Source: Klebsiella pneumoniae (GTDB lineage Bacteria; Desulfobacterota; Binatia; Bin18). Taken from it: a stretch of DNA of 64,000 nt. The DNA lies in contig CAMBFS010000002.1 in assembly GCA_945865755.1 (NCBI GenBank), positions 355 through 64,354 of the forward strand, in the 5' to 3' direction. Position 1 is the stretch's first letter. Every line of letters starts with the position of its first letter. Below the pieces are notes generated by a model. It saw only the letters and a list, made by a program, of their open reading frames with translations. It ran no database searches and was not told the origin of the DNA. Made by a program: the position numbers and the translations under genes. This document shows, one piece after another, positions 59,423 to 64,000 of the stretch.

Positions 59423-59734
59423 TTACCGCCCGAACCGGTAGCTCGGAGACGACCAGCTTGGCGACTTGGGAGATGTATACCCCTGGGAGTTCGGGAACGA
59501 TTGGCTCGGATACTGCCGTGTCCCCCACTGTCCGGTGTAGGGATTCACATTGCCACGCGTGCTCCAATTGTTGGAGAAGTTGCCGTCCGGAGTGGAACGA
59601 TAGTGGGGCTGGACGTAGGTACCATCGCTACGAAAGTGGCCGTTGACAACCGTGTCAGCCAAGGCTGGGGAAGCAACTGTGAGTGAGAATATCCCCACCA
59701 TCACTGCTTTGCGTAACCTATCTGTTCTCTGCAT
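59423..59734 (-). CDS. Small secreted conserved hypothetical protein
   Basis: AAGGAGG SD; signal peptide; V.GH.RSDGTYVQPHYRS.PDG...NNWST.GN.NPYTG..GT, a widely conserved pattern. Confidence 0.88.
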   Translation of the reverse strand: MQRTDRLRKAVMVGIFSLTVASPALADTVVNGHFRSDGTYVQPHYRSTPDGNFSNNWSTRGNVNPYTGQWGTRQYPSQSFPNSQGYTSPKSPSWSSPSYRFGR

Positions 59735-59864
59735 GATCCGTCCTCCTTGTGGTTAATTTGCCCGTGTTTTGGGCTTCTACCGTAAAGAGACTCTTGACGC
59801 GGCCTTTTTTTCCCTGGTCGCGCGCTTTTTTTTGCAGAGGATTTCGCCTATGTAAGCGGGTACT

Positions 59865-60461
59865 GTGGAAGCGGAGATACGGGACCTGATCCAACGTGCA
59901 GCAGCGGGAGAGAGCCTGGCGTGGGAGACGCTTGTCAATCAGTACCGCCGCCTGGTGTGGGGTCTCTTGCACAAATTCGACAACCTCAGTCAGACAGAGA
60001 GGGAAGACCTCATTCAGGACGTGTTCGTCATTCTTCTTGATCGTGGGCTCCAGCACTTTCACGGCTCCACTGTGCCTGAGTTTCGGATGTATCTGAAAAC
60101 CATCACAGTGAATGAAGCCAAGAGTTACCTCCGACGACATAGCCGCCGCCTTGAAGTATTGGACCCCTTTCTTGCCAGTGAAGGGGAAGAGGAAGAGTCG
60201 CCTTCCCCTGGATCTCTTCTTGCCGATCCCGCGCCAGGACCAGAGGAGCTGGTGGCCAAGCAGGAACTGTTACAGGGGCTCCACCGTTGCTTGCGGGACA
60301 TTTCTACGCTCGACCAAGAGATATTTTGGATGCGCGAAAGAGGACGCTCCTATCAGGAGATCACCGAAGCCTTGGACCTTGCTCAGGGAACGGTGGCATC
60401 CAAATACCACCGAGCGAAGGCAAAGCTCGAAGAATGTTTGAGGAAAGCCGGGATTTTATGA
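59865..60461 (+). CDS. ECF sigma-70 factor
   Basis: AWE.LV..Y...V, EDLIQDVF (region 2), SYQEI...L.L..GTV.S..HRAK.KL (region 4). Confidence 0.93.
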   Translation: MEAEIRDLIQRAAAGESLAWETLVNQYRRLVWGLLHKFDNLSQTEREDLIQDVFVILLDRGLQHFHGSTVPEFRMYLKTITVNEAKSYLRRHSRRLEVLDPFLASEGEEEESPSPGSLLADPAPGPEELVAKQELLQGLHRCLRDISTLDQEIFWMRERGRSYQEITEALDLAQGTVASKYHRAKAKLEECLRKAGIL

Positions 60462-60512
60462 GGGCGAGGGAAAAAATGGGGAGCGTGAGGAGTCTGTATC
60501 AATGAGGAGTGT

Positions 60513-62150
60513 GTGACTGTGAAGGAGTTAGACAAGACTCTCCTGCGGCAGCTTAGCCGGTTGCAGGCCCCTGACTGCCCCTCTGTGGGCACGTTGGGAG
60601 ATTTTCTGGATGGGAAAGGCAGCGCGGAGGAGAAACACGCCTTGGAATCTCATCTGCGAGGCTGCCCCTCGTGCGTGAACCGTCTCATTGACTTGCGAGA
60701 GCTGGCTCGCCTGGAGCAGGAAGGAGAGGAGCCTCCCGTTGCTCTCATCAACGAGTTGAAGCGATTGGTGCCTGCTCGGGAGCCTGTAAAGGCATCGGCT
60801 CCACCAGCGGTGGATCGAGTCGTCGAAGCCCTCTCTGCAGCCTGGGCGGCAATGTGGCAGTGGGTCTCGCCACGTTTCATTGGCGAGATCATTGCAGCCT
60901 CGGCTGTTGCAGTCTTTATTCTTTTCCTCGGTCCAACCCTCTGGCGGCAGCAGCCTCCTGGCGCTCAAGGGGGGGGGGAGCAGATCAAAGCGGCCACGGA
61001 CCTTACTGCCCAGGAGCAACGTGTTCTGGCCTCTCTATCGCTGGCTCCTGCTGGACCAGACCCACTGCAAAAACAGCTTGTTTCTACCCTGGAGAAGTTA
61101 CCCAAGAACCTCTTATTAGAAGAGACTCGCGGAGCGACCAATGTGGAGGTGTACAAGAAAGCCGCTCCGGCCACCGTGCTGGTGGTGACGGACCAGAGCC
61201 TGGGCAGTGGCGCAGTTATCAGCGACCAGGGCGAGGTACTGACCAACTGGCATGTGATCCAGGGGGCCAGCCGGATGGCGGTCGTGTTCAAGCCGCGGAA
61301 GGGAGTGGAGATCAAAAAGGAGTTAGCCTTTGCTGCTACTCTCGTGAAGGTGGACCAGGTGGCTGACCTGGCATTGCTACAGATTCAAGCGCCGCCACAA
61401 AATGTGAGTGTCCTTCCCTTGGGGGAGATGACGGACCTTGAGGTCGGGCAAGATGTACATGCCATTGGCCATCCGGACGGTGAGGTGTGGACGTACACCA
61501 CGGGCATCGTTAGCCAGGTTCGGCCCAACTATCAGTGGACTGGAGCTGACAAACTGCTTCACCAAAGCAATGTGATCCAAACCCAGACCGCGCTGAATCC
61601 GGGTAACTCCGGTGGGCCGCTGCTCAATGATCGAGCGGAGATCATTGGGATCAATTCCTTTCGCGGAGAGGGCGAGGGGCTGAACTACGCTGTGGCGGTT
61701 GATGTAGTCAAAGCGTTCCTCCAGAGGACCGAGAGCCGGGCAGCCGCGCCGGTACCGAGTCCACGTGCCGCTTCGTATAGAACAGAACCCTATGGGACGA
61801 ACATTGTGGGAGTGTACATCAATGCGCGAGTGCCGCCTCCAGATGTATGGTTCGTGTATCAAGATTCTGGCAAGCAGCTTGCCTATTCTGCCAGGGGGAG
61901 CAGGACCCCGACGCAGATCGATACGGTCATTCAAGGGGCAGACTCAGAGTGGAAGTCCTTACTGTATTATTTTGATGCCGACTGTGACGGGCAGATCGAT
62001 TTGATCGGGTTTGATTCCAATGGAGATGGGACCATTGATCGCTATGACCTCCCGCGAGAGCCCTTTCCGCTTGCTAGTCTCGCGCCAGAGCTGACGCAGG
62101 CGCTCCAGCAAGGTACGATCCCCTACTCTCAGTTACGAATGTGCCAGTGA
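60513..62150 (+). CDS. Zinc-finger (ZAS) anti-sigma domain fused via a TM helix to a trypsin-like serine protease
   Basis: C...HLRGCPSC; TM IIAASAVAVFILFLG; TNWHV, DLALL, NPGNSGGPL catalytic triad; C-terminal D.D.DG repeats; no PDZ recognised. Confidence 0.9.
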   Translation: MTVKELDKTLLRQLSRLQAPDCPSVGTLGDFLDGKGSAEEKHALESHLRGCPSCVNRLIDLRELARLEQEGEEPPVALINELKRLVPAREPVKASAPPAVDRVVEALSAAWAAMWQWVSPRFIGEIIAASAVAVFILFLGPTLWRQQPPGAQGGGEQIKAATDLTAQEQRVLASLSLAPAGPDPLQKQLVSTLEKLPKNLLLEETRGATNVEVYKKAAPATVLVVTDQSLGSGAVISDQGEVLTNWHVIQGASRMAVVFKPRKGVEIKKELAFAATLVKVDQVADLALLQIQAPPQNVSVLPLGEMTDLEVGQDVHAIGHPDGEVWTYTTGIVSQVRPNYQWTGADKLLHQSNVIQTQTALNPGNSGGPLLNDRAEIIGINSFRGEGEGLNYAVAVDVVKAFLQRTESRAAAPVPSPRAASYRTEPYGTNIVGVYINARVPPPDVWFVYQDSGKQLAYSARGSRTPTQIDTVIQGADSEWKSLLYYFDADCDGQIDLIGFDSNGDGTIDRYDLPREPFPLASLAPELTQALQQGTIPYSQLRMCQ

Positions 62151-62167
62151 GGGAAGGAGGGTCAGTC

Positions 62168-64000
62168 ATGGGCCAGAAGGTCATTGCTGCTGCGGCCGTC
62201 TTGCTGACTCTCTTGCTTATGGTGAGCCCAGGAAGGGGGGAGACAGAGGATGTCGAGGAAGCCAAGCGACTACAGCAACAATTACTCCAACTCTACCAGC
62301 AGGGAAACTATGCTGAGGCAGCCCATCTCGGTGAAAGAGTCTTGGCGATCCTGGAAAAAGCCTTAGGTCCCGACCATCCTGATACCGCGACAGCCCTCAA
62401 CAACTTGGCACTCTTGTCCCAAAATATGGGAGAGTATGCCAAGGCACTGCCACTTCACCAACGAGCCTTAGCAATTCGAGAGAAGGTCTTAGGTCCGGAC
62501 CATCCTGATACCGCTGTAACTCTCAATAACTTGGCACTCTTGCACCAAAGCATGGGAGAGTATGCCCAGGCACTGCCGCTCTACCAGCGAGCCTTAGCAA
62601 TACAGGAGAAGATCTTAGGCCCGGACCATCTGGATACTGCGACCTCCTTCAACAACCTGGGAGGGCTGTATTACAGCATGGGGGACTACGCCCAGGCACT
62701 GCCACTTCATCAACGAGCCTTAGCAATCCGGGAGAAGGCCTTGGGCCCGGCCCATCCTGATACCGCGACAACCCTCGGCAAATTGGCGGCAGTGTTTTAC
62801 AGCATGGGCGACTACGCTAATGCCTTGCCGCTCTACCAGCGAGCCTTGGTGATTTGCGAGAAGACATCGGGGCCTAACCACCCCAACACTGCTACAGCCC
62901 TTAATAACTTGGCAGAATCGTATAAGAGCATGGGTGACTACGCTAAGGCACTGCCGCTCTACCAGCGAGCCTTAGCAATACGGGAGAAGGTCTTAGGTTC
63001 GGCCCATCCTGATACCGCGACAACCCTACATAACTTAGCATTCTTGTATAAGAGCATGGGCGACTACGCTAAGGCACTGCCGCTCCAGCAGCGGGCCTTG
63101 GTGATAATGGAGAAGGCTCCAGGCCCGGACCATCCTGATACCACGACAACCCTCAGCAACTTGGCGGCGTTGTATACGCTCATGGGCGACTACGCCAAGG
63201 CACTGCTGCTCCAGCAGCGGGCCTTGGTGATAATGGAGAAGGCTCCAGGTTCTAGCCATTCTAACATTGAGCTCGCCCTCAGCAACTTGGCGGAATTGTA
63301 TTACCGCATGGGGGACTACGCCAAGGCACTGCCACTTCATCAACGAGCCTTAGCAATCCGGGAGAAGGCTCTAGGCCCGGACCATCCCGACACCACGACA
63401 ACCCTCAGCAATTTAGCAACGTCGTATCTCGCTCTAGGAGAGTTCGCTCAGGCGCTACCTCTTCTTCAGAGAGCCTTAGCAGTTTTGGAGAAGGTCTTAG
63501 GTCCGAACCACCCCTACACCGCTACCATTCTCAGCAACCTAGCATTTGTGTATACCTTCATGGGGGACTACGCCCAGGCGCTTCGATTCTTTCAACGTGC
63601 ACTGACAGTAGAAGACCATACCTTCGCCAATGTGTTTTCTGTCGCCTCCGAAGAACAAAAGCTGCAGTTTGCGGAAAAATCCCAAGGGGCTTATCTCAGC
63701 ACCCTATGGCTTATCCGCAGCCATTTTCTGAGAGACACGTTGGCTATCCGCGTCGGCTTGGAATTAGTTTTACGCCGTAAGGGTATCGTGCTTGATGCTC
63801 AGTCACGTGCCCAGCAGACCTTGGCAGCTCATCTCGAAGGTAAGACTCTTCAATCATGGCAACGGTTGACGCAACACCGCAGTGCTCTTTCCCGGCTGCT
63901 GTTGGGTGGACCTGGGAAGCAAAGTCCTGAGGACTACAAGCGGAGGGTAGAAGAACTTCACGCGACCATCGCCCGCGAAGAGGAGTTTCTGGCCCAACAC
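62168..64000 (+). CDS. Secreted TPR-repeat protein with CHAT-type linker, truncated at window end
   Basis: Hand translation is open from ATG 62168 to 64000. Signal peptide; ten 42-aa units GPDHPDTA..LNNLA.LY..MG.Y..ALPL.QRAL.I.EK.L starting at 62366 with 126-bp period; then SEEQKLQF...VLRRKGIVLDA. Confidence 0.9.
   Translation, partial: MGQKVIAAAAVLLTLLLMVSPGRGETEDVEEAKRLQQQLLQLYQQGNYAEAAHLGERVLAILEKALGPDHPDTATALNNLALLSQNMGEYAKALPLHQRALAIREKVLGPDHPDTAVTLNNLALLHQSMGEYAQALPLYQRALAIQEKILGPDHLDTATSFNNLGGLYYSMGDYAQALPLHQRALAIREKALGPAHPDTATTLGKLAAVFYSMGDYANALPLYQRALVICEKTSGPNHPNTATALNNLAESYKSMGDYAKALPLYQRALAIREKVLGSAHPDTATTLHNLAFLYKSMGDYAKALPLQQRALVIMEKAPGPDHPDTTTTLSNLAALYTLMGDYAKALLLQQRALVIMEKAPGSSHSNIELALSNLAELYYRMGDYAKALPLHQRALAIREKALGPDHPDTTTTLSNLATSYLALGEFAQALPLLQRALAVLEKVLGPNHPYTATILSNLAFVYTFMGDYAQALRFFQRALTVEDHTFANVFSVASEEQKLQFAEKSQGAYLSTLWLIRSHFLRDTLAIRVGLELVLRRKGIVLDAQSRAQQTLAAHLEGKTLQSWQRLTQHRSALSRLLLGGPGKQSPEDYKRRVEELHATIAREEEFLAQH

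What the first reader, a model, noticed from the sequence alone, without database searches (positions are those of the whole stretch)
59865..64000. ECF sigma, anti-sigma-protease fusion and secreted TPR(-CHAT) protein: candidate proteolytic signalling cascade
The anti-sigma carries a cytoplasmic ZAS zinc finger, one TM helix and an extracytoplasmic trypsin-like domain with an intact H-D-S triad. The sensor is thus itself a protease, unlike the RseA/DegS arrangement where they are separate proteins. The next gene encodes an exported ten-TPR protein whose post-repeat linker (SEEQKL...VLRRKG.VLD) typically precedes a caspase-like CHAT domain, which would lie beyond the window. A TPR-gated protease activating a zymogen-like anti-sigma would parallel the CHAT-to-sigma logic of Craspase systems, but without CRISPR.
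Basis: partly seen in the sequence, partly recalled or inferred. Interest (0 to 1): 0.72.

Follow-up and report, generated by a model that had tools for sequence, protein, structure and literature searches.

The report
Sigma switch with two envelope proteases
This is a rare but conserved gene module in which a stress-type sigma factor is held by a membrane anti-sigma factor that carries its own DegS-like serine protease and is always paired with an exported caspase-like (TPR-CHAT) protease; it is an undescribed wiring of a known signalling principle, and in this genome a mobile element has cut the CHAT gene.

Summary
Window 59865-64000 encodes an RpoE-like ECF sigma and a ZAS/one-TM anti-sigma fused to an HtrA/DegS-like protease. 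The protease triad is intact, there is no PDZ, and a novel beta domain sits at the C-terminus. The third gene is an exported protein with ten 42-residue TPRs. Extending the contig shows that the TPR protein does continue into a CHAT domain (167 bits, His and Cys present). However, an insertion sequence cuts the gene after the catalytic Cys, and the last ~80 codons are not in the assembly.

Sigma, anti-sigma-protease and TPR-CHAT keep this order in about 18 of 21 loci from Binatia-like, "deltaproteobacterial" and Methylomirabilota MAGs. Two sigma-less variants still pair the protease with a TPR-CHAT.

I add a fourth conserved gene, a small exported protein transcribed divergently from sigma. 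I also add two conserved copies of one ECF-type promoter motif (GGGAAAAA-N13-15-AGTCT). One faces the small gene and the other faces the anti-sigma/CHAT pair.

The closest known system is DdvS/DdvA of Myxococcus, where the TPR-CHAT is fused to the anti-sigma. This module is a split version with an extra protease. Which protease cuts what is inferred, not shown. I rate it a new variant of a known kind.

The parts
59423..59734 (-). Small exported protein (103 aa). It has a signal peptide, then the core YV-x-G-[YH]-x-RS-[DN]-GTYVQP-[YH]-x-RS-x-PDG...NPYTG, then a variable tail. It is the fourth conserved gene of the module and is divergent from sigma.
   Evidence: ORF. Orthologues are at the same position in L088, L090, L093, L097, L099, L103, L104 and L106. 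No Pfam or PADLOC family matches.
59788..59814 (-). P1, an ECF-type promoter motif: GGGAAAAAAA (-35), spacer, AGTCT (-10). It faces the small exported-protein gene. A short stem-loop (59760-59774) and the RBS AGGAGGA (59741-59747) follow it.
   Evidence: Sequence. The motif is conserved at the same position in 10-11 orthologous loci. It occurs only twice in the 64-kb window, against 0.04 expected by chance.
59865..60461 (+). ECF (group 4) sigma factor, RpoE/AlgU-like.
   Evidence: Pfam r2 and r4_2, and TIGR02937 above cut-off. The best PDB sequence hits are E. coli sigma-E 1or7 and the 6in7 sigma chain. RpoE equivalog score is 70.5 against a cut-off of 236, so it is not an RpoE orthologue.
60468..60495 (+). 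P2, the second copy of the same ECF-type promoter motif (GGGAAAAAA-N15-AGTCT). It lies 7 nt after the sigma stop codon and faces the anti-sigma-protease and TPR-CHAT genes.
   Evidence: It is conserved directly after the sigma stop in 12 of 13 orthologous loci. The distance from A-run start to GTC is 19-22 nt in all 17 sites measured.
60519..62150 (+). Anti-sigma-protease fusion (543 aa from GTG 60519; the ORF is open from 60513).
   Evidence: Domain calls. Full-length homologues down to 40% identity. Alignments A1 and A3. AlphaFold model with pLDDT 76.
60534..60761 (+). Cytoplasmic class I anti-sigma domain with the ZAS motif: C20 (60576), H45 (60651), C49 (60663), C52 (60672).
   Evidence: zf-HC2 above cut-off. 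All four residues are 91/91. A helical bundle is predicted at residues 6-81.
60879..60944 (+). Single transmembrane helix (residues 121-142).
   Evidence: Hydrophobic stretch, modelled as a helix by AlphaFold.
61119..61133 (+). E201-x-T203-R204-G205 motif at the N-terminal edge of the protease domain. It is a candidate site-1 or activation cleavage site of the separase-like E-x-x-R type.
   Evidence: E 89/91, T 76/91, R 87/91 (K 2), G 89/91. E-x-x-R-G is also present in the sigma-less variants P0116 (EKGRG) and L105 (ENVRG). Its role as a cleavage site is an inference.
61134..61724 (+). Periplasmic HtrA/DegS-like serine protease domain: H245 (61251), D283 (61365), S364 (61608).
   Evidence: Trypsin_2 99 bits. 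Foldseek finds DegS-deltaPDZ and HtrA1 with TM 0.75-0.82 normalised to the target and about 30% identity. Triad is 90-91 of 91.
61773..62147 (+). Family-specific C-terminal beta domain (~125 aa) in the place of a PDZ. It has invariant C489 and C542 and a D-x-[DN]-C-D-G-x-[VI]-D-L Ca-loop-like motif.
   Evidence: No Pfam family beyond sub-threshold EF-hand loops. Confident model, pLDDT 84-93 in the full-length model and 85.5 alone. No PDB fold match, best E 0.19. Only 45 cluster representatives at E<=1e-10 among 1.84 billion.
62168..64000 (+). Exported TPR-CHAT protease, N-terminal 611 residues. It has a signal peptide, ten 42-residue KLC-type TPRs (about 62300-63600) and a helical linker. The gene continues past the window to C2:65428. 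CHAT is at C2:64661-65413, and an IS junction cuts the gene at C2:65404.
   Evidence: TPR_12 586 bits. Repeat register. CHAT 166.8 bits on profile positions 4-216 of 289. IS junction.

Best explanation
SHOWN
- This is a conserved four-gene envelope module.
- An RpoE-like ECF sigma is encoded next to a membrane anti-sigma. The cytoplasmic end of the anti-sigma is a zinc-type (ZAS) anti-sigma domain.
- The periplasmic end is a DegS-like HtrA protease with an intact triad. The usual PDZ is replaced by a novel, rare beta domain.
- The next gene encodes an exported TPR-CHAT cysteine protease with a conserved His-Cys dyad.
- A small exported protein is encoded divergently from sigma.
- Two conserved copies of one ECF-type promoter motif sit in front of the small gene and in front of the anti-sigma/TPR-CHAT pair.
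- The protease/TPR-CHAT pairing also exists without sigma or ZAS.

INFERRED (most likely mechanism)
- The two periplasmic proteases form a short cascade.
- The TPR-CHAT protease is gated by whatever its TPR array binds. It cuts the anti-sigma at or near the invariant E-x-T-R|G motif just before the serine-protease domain.
- That single cut frees, and possibly activates, the HtrA-like protease in the periplasm. It also serves as the site-1 cleavage that exposes the membrane stub to an RseP-type site-2 protease.
- Sigma is then released. It transcribes the small exported protein and new anti-sigma plus TPR-CHAT. This resets the switch (negative feedback) and amplifies the protease pair.

IN THIS GENOME
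An IS element has removed the last ~80 residues of the CHAT domain, so this copy of the module is probably impaired.

The confidence given is for the full inferred mechanism. The shown part alone I would put at about 0.9.
For: - Domain identities.
- Invariance of ZAS, triad and E-x-T-R-G.
- Synteny sigma > anti-sigma-protease > TPR(-CHAT) in about 18 of 21 loci, with fusion identity down to about 42%.
- Sigma-less pairs: L105 and L109.
- CHAT dyad conserved, with signal peptides or lipoboxes, in all complete module CHATs.
- Promoter motif twice in the locus and conserved across loci. Expected 0.04 in the window, observed 2.
- M50 (RseP-type) proteases are present in the genome.
- Precedents: DdvA is a ZAS-TM-TPR-CHAT anti-sigma for which CHAT cleavage of the linker followed by RseP is proposed (PMC11506125). 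Csx29 TPR-CHAT cleaves the sigma inhibitor Csx30 (PMC10028731). SAVED-CHAT cleaves and activates a second protease (bioRxiv 10.1101/2023.06.23.546230).
Against: - No cleavage, binding or transcription has been observed. Everything on mechanism rests on anatomy, conservation and analogy.
- From my memory of the DegS sequence, E-x-T of the motif aligns with the N-terminal segment of DegS (D-E-T-P-A). Part of its conservation may therefore be structural and not a cleavage site.
- A cut at R204 would leave a ~60-residue periplasmic stub, longer than the RseA stub that RseP accepts.
- The CHAT region has no sequence-level similarity to DdvA, Csx29 or separase in the PDB, so its specificity cannot be transferred from them.
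- The HtrA domain could equally well cut its own tether.
- The promoter motif is a prediction without transcript data.
- The strict motif finds almost no other targets in the genome. This could mean a self-contained regulon, or that the true regulon is missed in an 85%-complete MAG.
Confidence: 0.4

Rival explanations
1. DegS-in-cis. The anti-sigma's own HtrA-like domain is the site-1 protease. When its C-terminal beta domain (the PDZ substitute) or its active site engages substrate or ligand, the probably trimeric protease cuts its own or a neighbour's juxtamembrane tether. RseP then follows and sigma is freed. The TPR-CHAT is a co-regulated partner, either effector or modulator, and not the trigger.
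For: - The topology is that of DegS (N-terminal TM, periplasmic protease), and the fold matches DegS-deltaPDZ.
- The sigma is RpoE-like.
- There is a precedent for a membrane-anchored HtrA that removes its own N-terminal anchor on substrate binding (PMC5359297, listed). MamE self-processing appears in the same list.
- P2 makes TPR-CHAT an output of sigma.
Against: - It does not explain why a TPR-CHAT is kept next to the protease in nearly every locus, including the sigma-less ones.
- It does not explain why the family-specific R-G follows the DegS-like E-T.
- HtrA proteases prefer hydrophobic P1 residues (general knowledge), and no such conserved site is evident in the linker.
Confidence: 0.25
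2. Proteases as cargo only. Sigma release is governed by the ZAS domain (redox or zinc) or by an unlinked housekeeping site-1 protease. The tethered HtrA domain, the TPR-CHAT and the small protein are simply the envelope-remodelling or quality-control output of the regulon.
For: - The ZAS cysteines are invariant.
- Both proteases and the small protein lie behind the predicted sigma-dependent promoters.
- Many ECF operons co-transcribe their effectors.
Against: - Most membrane ZAS anti-sigmas are not redox sensors (general knowledge; DdvA zinc is described as structural in PMC11506125).
- Covalent fusion of a protease to the sensor end of an anti-sigma, kept across 91 homologues, is hard to explain if it plays no part in sensing.
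- The DdvA fusion links CHAT to anti-sigma function.
Confidence: 0.15
3. Anti-phage or invader surveillance module of the DdvA type. The TPR array detects a phage- or competitor-derived periplasmic protein, and the response (small protein, proteases) is defensive or abortive.
For: - DdvS/DdvA controls a CBASS-CRISPR island and protects against phage (PMC11506125).
- Several orthologous loci sit among toxin-antitoxin, SocA/Panacea, deaminase, UvrD-helicase, PLD and integrase genes.
- Distribution is patchy: 2 of 401 genomes sampled in the phylum.
Against: - There is no specific PADLOC match.
- In this genome the neighbours are SurA, PdxA and a phosphomannomutase.
- No defence genes lie behind the predicted promoters.
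- This rival concerns the biological role and is compatible with either proteolytic mechanism.
Confidence: 0.1

Closest known systems
DdvS / DdvA of Myxococcus xanthus (PMC11506125)
   Same: Both have an ECF sigma plus a single-pass membrane anti-sigma with a cytoplasmic CHCC zinc anti-sigma domain, and a periplasmic TPR-CHAT with a His-Cys dyad as the presumed sensor/protease. In both, proteolysis of the juxtamembrane linker followed by RseP is the proposed route.
   Different: In DdvA the TPR-CHAT is fused to the anti-sigma. Here it is a separate exported protein, and the anti-sigma carries an HtrA-like serine protease plus a novel beta domain. No sequence similarity to DdvA is detectable in the PDB. 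No CBASS or CRISPR regulon is seen. The sigma is RpoE-like.
RpoE-RseA-DegS-RseP envelope stress pathway of E. coli (and AlgU-MucA-AlgW)
   Same: Both have an RpoE-like sigma and a membrane anti-sigma. Both have a DegS-type HtrA protease domain tethered to the inner membrane facing the periplasm, and presumably sequential site-1 and site-2 proteolysis.
   Different: Here anti-sigma and protease are one polypeptide. The anti-sigma domain is ZAS-type and not RseA-type. There is no PDZ, and no RseB or RseC. A CHAT protease is added. All DegS and RpoE equivalog scores are far below cut-off.
Type III-E Craspase: Csx29 (TPR-CHAT) - Csx30 - CASP-sigma (PMC10028731)
   Same: A TPR-CHAT protease cleaves an inhibitor of an ECF-like sigma, and the sigma then acts on promoters within its own locus.
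   Different: Craspase is cytoplasmic, RNA-guided and Cas7-11-bound. Csx30 is unrelated to ZAS anti-sigmas. Here everything upstream of the membrane is extracytoplasmic, and no cas genes are nearby.
SAVED-CHAT to PCaspase cascade of Haliangium type III-B (bioRxiv 10.1101/2023.06.23.546230)
   Same: A CHAT protease specifically cleaves and activates a second protease, and a sigma-like factor lies downstream.
   Different: It is cytoplasmic and gated by cyclic oligoadenylate. The second protease is a caspase-like cysteine protease, not an HtrA. The outcome is abortive infection.
ECF54 genomic context (PMC8999054, citing the ECF reclassification)
   Same: An ECF sigma with a CHAT-domain protein conserved in its neighbourhood.
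   Different: ECF54 is described as lacking an anti-sigma and as having carboxypeptidase and subtilase neighbours. Here a ZAS anti-sigma is present and the second protease is HtrA-like.

Membership tests
ECF (group 4) sigma-70 factors | [quoted passage not shown] | tested here: met
   r2 45.7 bits, r4_2 35.3 bits; TIGR02937 87.4 bits against a cut-off of 42.9
RpoE (sigma-E) orthologues | Score above the equivalog cut-off of TIGR02939 | tested here: not met
   70.5 bits against a cut-off of 236. It is RpoE-like by best PDB hit only.
Named ECF group (ECF Hub classification) | Match to a group-specific HMM | not testable with these tools
   No ECF group library is available. The supplements of PMC7826278 are not held.
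Class I / ZAS anti-sigma factors | zf-HC2 domain with C/H-x(23-26)-H-x3-C-x2-C, encoded next to an ECF sigma | tested here: met
   PF13490 29.6 bits against a cut-off of 22.2. C20/H45/C49/C52 are 91/91. Sigma is upstream in 15 loci.
Class I / ZAS anti-sigma factors | Binds and inhibits its cognate sigma | not testable with these tools
   Needs two-hybrid, pull-down or complex modelling.
HtrA (S1C) proteases | Chymotrypsin-fold protease domain with a His-Asp-Ser triad | tested here: met
   Trypsin_2 99.1 bits. Foldseek to DegS and HtrA1 gives TM 0.75-0.82. Triad is 90-91 of 91.
HtrA (S1C) proteases | At least one C-terminal PDZ domain | tested here: not met
   No PDZ in Pfam. The C-terminal domain has no PDB fold match. 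TIGR02037 scores 131.8 against 416 and DegS TIGR02038 scores 88.3 against 423.
CHAT (clan CD) proteases | PF12770 domain with the catalytic His and Cys | tested here: met
   166.8 bits against a cut-off of 24. His in LHLATHG and Cys in LSACET. The dyad is conserved in all complete module orthologues.
CHAT (clan CD) proteases | Complete domain in this genome | tested here: not met
   Only profile positions 4-216 of 289 are present. There is an IS junction at C2:65404, and the C-terminal ~80 aa are absent from the assembly.
DdvA-type anti-sigma | ZAS domain, TM helix and periplasmic TPR-CHAT in one polypeptide | tested here: not met
   The TPR-CHAT is a separate gene with its own RBS, signal peptide and start, 17 nt after the anti-sigma stop.
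Craspase / type III-E accessory module | Association with Cas7-11 and Csx30/Csx31 | tested here: not met
   The gene lists of the orthologous loci show no cas families. The neighbours here are SurA, PdxA and PMM. No dedicated cas profile search was run.
ECF54 context | No anti-sigma; CHAT plus subtilase and carboxypeptidase neighbours | tested here: not met
   An anti-sigma is present. No subtilase or carboxypeptidase appears in the loci.
Known anti-phage defence systems (PADLOC) | Specific match of module proteins to a system model | tested here: not met
   Only generic trypsin-domain and TPR hits.

The most novel reading that the evidence does not exclude
The HtrA-CTD protease and the exported TPR-CHAT form a previously unrecognised periplasmic initiator/executioner protease cascade, found both with and without a sigma output. 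The caspase-like CHAT binds a foreign or damaged envelope protein through its TPR array and cuts the invariant E-x-T-R|G site. This releases and activates the serine protease. In the ZAS-fused versions the same cut doubles as site-1 cleavage and switches on an RpoE-like sigma. It would be a natural, CRISPR-independent, extracytoplasmic counterpart of the SAVED-CHAT/PCaspase and Craspase logic, and a 'split DdvA'.
Probability: 0.3. Interest if true: 0.8.

Novelty: new variant of a known kind. Interest (0 to 1): 0.6.

Why it matters
ECF sigma factors are the most numerous bacterial envelope-to-gene signalling devices, and how the first (site-1) cut of the anti-sigma is triggered is known for only a few.

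This module puts a DegS-like protease on the anti-sigma itself and adds a caspase-like partner. Two candidate triggers, their substrate and the reporter promoters are therefore all encoded within about 6 kb and can be reconstituted together.

[quoted passage not shown] That could settle whether periplasmic CHAT domains really cleave anti-sigma linkers.

It would also extend prokaryotic caspase-type protease cascades, so far tied to CRISPR/CBASS in the cytoplasm, to the periplasm.

Finally, the C-terminal beta domain that replaces the PDZ is a rare domain with no structural relative, and it is a candidate new ligand sensor.

Tried and rejected
1. The first genome scan with the full-length family alignment picked generic HtrA motifs (NPGNSGGPL) and returned ordinary HtrA genes. 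I replaced it with a scan using only the C-terminal domain.
2. The 'short' homologues of 430-440 aa looked like ZAS-less forms. In L107 the ZAS is in frame upstream of a miscalled start. Only L105 and P0116/L109 are truly sigma-less.
3. I searched for the missing CHAT C-terminus in the assembly with intact orthologue tails. It was not found.
5. A relaxed promoter pattern gave 33 genome hits against 7-16 in shuffles, mostly inside genes. I rejected it as a regulon predictor. Only the strict motif is informative.
6. A PDB sequence search with the CHAT part found no DdvA, Csx29 or separase hit.
7. A fold search with the C-terminal domain found no match.
8. PADLOC gave nothing specific.
9. The supplements of the ECF reclassification paper are not held, so no ECF group number could be assigned.
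10. The sigma-70 promoter and terminator scan of the locus was at background level.
11. The IS transposase fragment gave no Pfam family.

Full report
**What is there.** The window is C2:355-64354 of a 228-contig, about 85%-complete MAG. The three ORFs of the finding are real.

- The first ORF is an ECF sigma: Sigma70_r2 and r4_2, and TIGR02937 87 bits against a cut-off of 42.9. It is far below the RpoE equivalog cut-off. Its best solved relatives are E. coli sigma-E and an AlgU-type sigma.
- The second ORF has a zf-HC2 anti-sigma domain above cut-off, one hydrophobic helix (residues 121-142) and a Trypsin_2/HtrA-like domain. No PDZ is found.
- The third ORF starts with a signal peptide and has ten repeats in exact 42-residue register.
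- RBS positions favour GTG 60519 and ATG 62168 as the starts of genes 2 and 3.
- Upstream of the module lie SurA, PdxA and a phosphomannomutase.

**The predicted CHAT domain.** The contig runs 1.2 kb past the window. There the TPR ORF continues to C2:65428 and matches PF12770 at 166.8 bits, with the catalytic His (LHLATHGFF) and Cys (LSACETAAG).

The match ends at profile position 216 of 289. After ...GEGVYG(L) the sequence becomes the 25-bp terminal inverted repeat (CTGAAGTCAGGACACATTTGCTAAA) of an IS. One IS end is found at about 9 other contig termini and the opposite end at about 10. Intact orthologues continue for about 80 more residues (RRAFVLAGAKNLVMSLWPV...), and that piece is nowhere in the assembly. 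So in the assembled genome the CHAT gene is interrupted after its catalytic Cys.

**A conserved family, not a chance fusion.**
- The fusion protein has full-length homologues down to about 40% identity. The few named ones are annotated only as trypsin-like peptidases from Candidatus Binatia.
- In 91 of them the ZAS residues C20/H45/C49/C52 are invariant. The triad is 90-91 of 91, and two cysteines of the C-terminal domain (C489, C542) are invariant.
- AlphaFold (pLDDT 76) gives a helical anti-sigma bundle, a TM helix, a disordered or partly helical juxtamembrane linker, a protease core and a beta-rich C-terminal domain.
- The core superposes on DegS-deltaPDZ and HtrA1, with TM 0.75-0.82 normalised to the target.
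- The C-terminal domain, modelled alone at pLDDT 85, has no PDB fold match.
- A profile of that domain finds only 45 cluster representatives at E<=1e-10 among 1.84 billion. In full-length proteins it is always at the C-terminus of 410-570-residue proteins.
- Within the host's own phylum only 2 of 401 sampled genomes carry the family. The distribution is rare and patchy.
- Housekeeping genes place the host near Binatia/Thermodesulfobacteriota-type MAGs at only about 60-64% identity.

**Synteny.** I used exact look-ups of homologues on long contigs, a genome scan with the family-specific C-terminal domain, BLAST annotation of all loci and Pfam checks.
- A TPR or TPR-CHAT gene is adjacent in about 18 of 21 loci, almost always immediately downstream on the same strand. 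CHAT is verified in 16.
- An ECF sigma lies immediately upstream in 15.
- The three exceptions are two loci with a truncated or frameshifted fusion gene (L096, L101) and one rearranged locus (L095).
- The CHAT His and Cys are conserved in all complete copies. The proteins carry a signal peptide or, in a second clade, a lipobox.
- Two variants lack sigma and ZAS: L105 and P0116/L109. They have a signal peptide followed by the same linker, protease and C-terminal domain, and they still sit beside a TPR-CHAT. The two periplasmic proteases therefore look like the core unit, with sigma/anti-sigma as an added output.

**New elements.**
- (a) A small exported protein (103 aa here) is encoded divergently from sigma in most loci. 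It has a conserved core and a variable acidic or Ser/Pro-rich tail, and it matches no known family.
- (b) One promoter-like motif, GGGAAAAA(A/T)-N13-15-(G)AGTCT, occurs twice in the module. P1 (59814-59788, minus strand) lies upstream of the small gene. P2 (60468-60495, plus strand) starts 7 nt after the sigma stop codon, upstream of the anti-sigma-protease and TPR-CHAT genes.
- Both sites are conserved in the orthologous loci, with a fixed distance of 19-22 nt from A-run start to GTC.
- In the window the motif occurs exactly twice against 0.04 expected. In the whole genome the strict form occurs three times against about one expected.
- Its geometry and its -10 (GTCT) fit RpoE-like ECF promoters. 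That comparison rests on my own knowledge of ECF promoters and not on a tool result.
- No copy faces the sigma gene itself. The predicted regulon is therefore the small protein plus new anti-sigma and CHAT. This amounts to a self-resetting loop.

**How it most likely works.**

What is shown is anatomy and conservation. What follows is inference.

Three experimentally studied systems set the frame.
- In DdvA, a ZAS-TM anti-sigma with a fused periplasmic TPR-CHAT, CHAT cleavage of the linker followed by RseP is the proposed route (PMC11506125).
- Csx29 TPR-CHAT cleaves the sigma inhibitor Csx30 (PMC10028731).
- SAVED-CHAT cleaves and thereby activates a second protease.

Four observations from this module add to that:
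- the DdvA fusion as a Rosetta-stone link between CHAT and ZAS anti-sigmas;
- the strict pairing of the HtrA-CTD protease with a TPR-CHAT, even without sigma;
- a nearly invariant E201-x-T-R204-G205 motif directly before the protease domain, kept as E-x-x-R-G in the sigma-less forms, which resembles the E-x-x-R sites of separase described in PMC11506125;
- the presence of M50 site-2 proteases in the genome.

On this basis I favour a two-step cascade. The TPR-gated CHAT cuts at or near R204|G205. That cut releases the serine protease and creates the site-1 product. RseP-type cleavage then frees sigma, and sigma drives P1 and P2. I put this at about 0.4.

The main rival (0.25) is a cis version of DegS/RseA, in which the tethered HtrA domain cuts its own anchor. 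A Brevibacillus HtrA does this on substrate binding (PMC5359297). In that model CHAT is a co-regulated partner.

The less likely rivals are that both proteases are mere regulon cargo (0.15), and that the role is anti-phage surveillance as for DdvA (0.1). The last is compatible with either mechanism.

Caveats:
- From memory, the E-T of the motif also occurs at the equivalent place in DegS, so it may be partly structural.
- The stub left by a cut at R204 would be about 60 residues long.
- There are no transcript or protein data.

**Comparison and novelty.** Full-text searches for anti-sigma together with CHAT, trypsin-like or HtrA fusions found DdvA, Craspase, the type III-B cascade and a remark on ECF54 (CHAT, subtilase and carboxypeptidase neighbours, no anti-sigma). 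None describes a ZAS-HtrA anti-sigma with a separate exported TPR-CHAT.

The module fails the membership tests for DdvA-type (not one polypeptide), canonical HtrA/DegS (no PDZ, below cut-offs), RpoE equivalog, Craspase (no cas context), ECF54 and PADLOC systems. It works like a regulated-proteolysis ECF switch. I therefore class it as a new variant of a known kind.

I reached the anatomy, the synteny and the E-x-T-R-G motif independently here, and I treat that note as agreement, not as evidence.

**Verdict.**
- Observation: confirmed.
- Interpretation: partly supported.
- This particular copy is probably crippled by an IS insertion.
- Interest is 0.6. The module is rare and uncharacterised and can be tested directly by reconstitution, but it lies within a known signalling paradigm.

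Noticed in passing
C2:65404-65550 (just beyond the window end) and about 19 other contig ends of the genome: An insertion sequence with perfect 25-bp terminal inverted repeats (CTGAAGTCAGGACACATTTGCTAAA). One end is found at about 9 contig termini and the other at about 10, so there are roughly ten copies. It breaks the assembly and interrupts the CHAT gene. The transposase N-terminal fragment matches no Pfam family.
   Followed up: partly
L094:5059-5061: The TPR-CHAT orthologue of a Binatia MAG has an in-frame TGA exactly at the conserved Trp codon (…NLVMSL*PVGD…). The frame stays open and conserved for ~65 more codons. This is a nonsense mutation, a sequencing error or a TGG/TGA polymorphism.
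   Followed up: no
window 59760-59774 (minus strand), 5' leader of the small exported-protein gene: A short stem-loop lies between the predicted -10 and the RBS. It is kept in the orthologous loci through compensatory changes: GCCC...GGGC here, GGCGCC...GGCGC and GCGCCGGT...ACCGGCGC elsewhere. It may be an RNA element or a protein-binding palindrome.
   Followed up: no
L088:7562-7891, and the same position in L103 and L106: One clade has an extra 109-aa gene between sigma and the anti-sigma-protease, directly behind promoter motif P2. It has a TM or signal segment, then an acidic Asp/Ser-rich tail, and matches no Pfam family.
   Followed up: no
L093 and L094 (two contigs of one Binatia MAG, JBGPOI01): Two paralogous copies of the module are in the same genome. 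Their TPR proteins differ, at 28% and 61% identity to ours. This suggests insulated parallel modules.
   Followed up: no
G000 C1:43201-46671 (minus) and C44:10537-12942 (minus): There are two further CHAT-domain proteins in this genome, of 1157 and 802 aa. BLAST finds no sigma, ZAS or HtrA-CTD relative among their neighbours.
   Followed up: partly
G000 C150:1240: This is the only other strict match to the promoter motif in the genome (GGGAAAAAAGGCAACATGGAAGTCT). No convincing gene lies downstream on that short contig.
   Followed up: no
L087, L088, L107 and the contig of P0087: In several genomes the module sits among toxin-antitoxin genes (PemK, MqsA-like, SocA/Panacea), a deaminase, Thg1, a UvrD helicase, a PLD nuclease and a phage integrase. 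That is variable, defence-island-like surroundings, unlike the housekeeping context here.
   Followed up: partly
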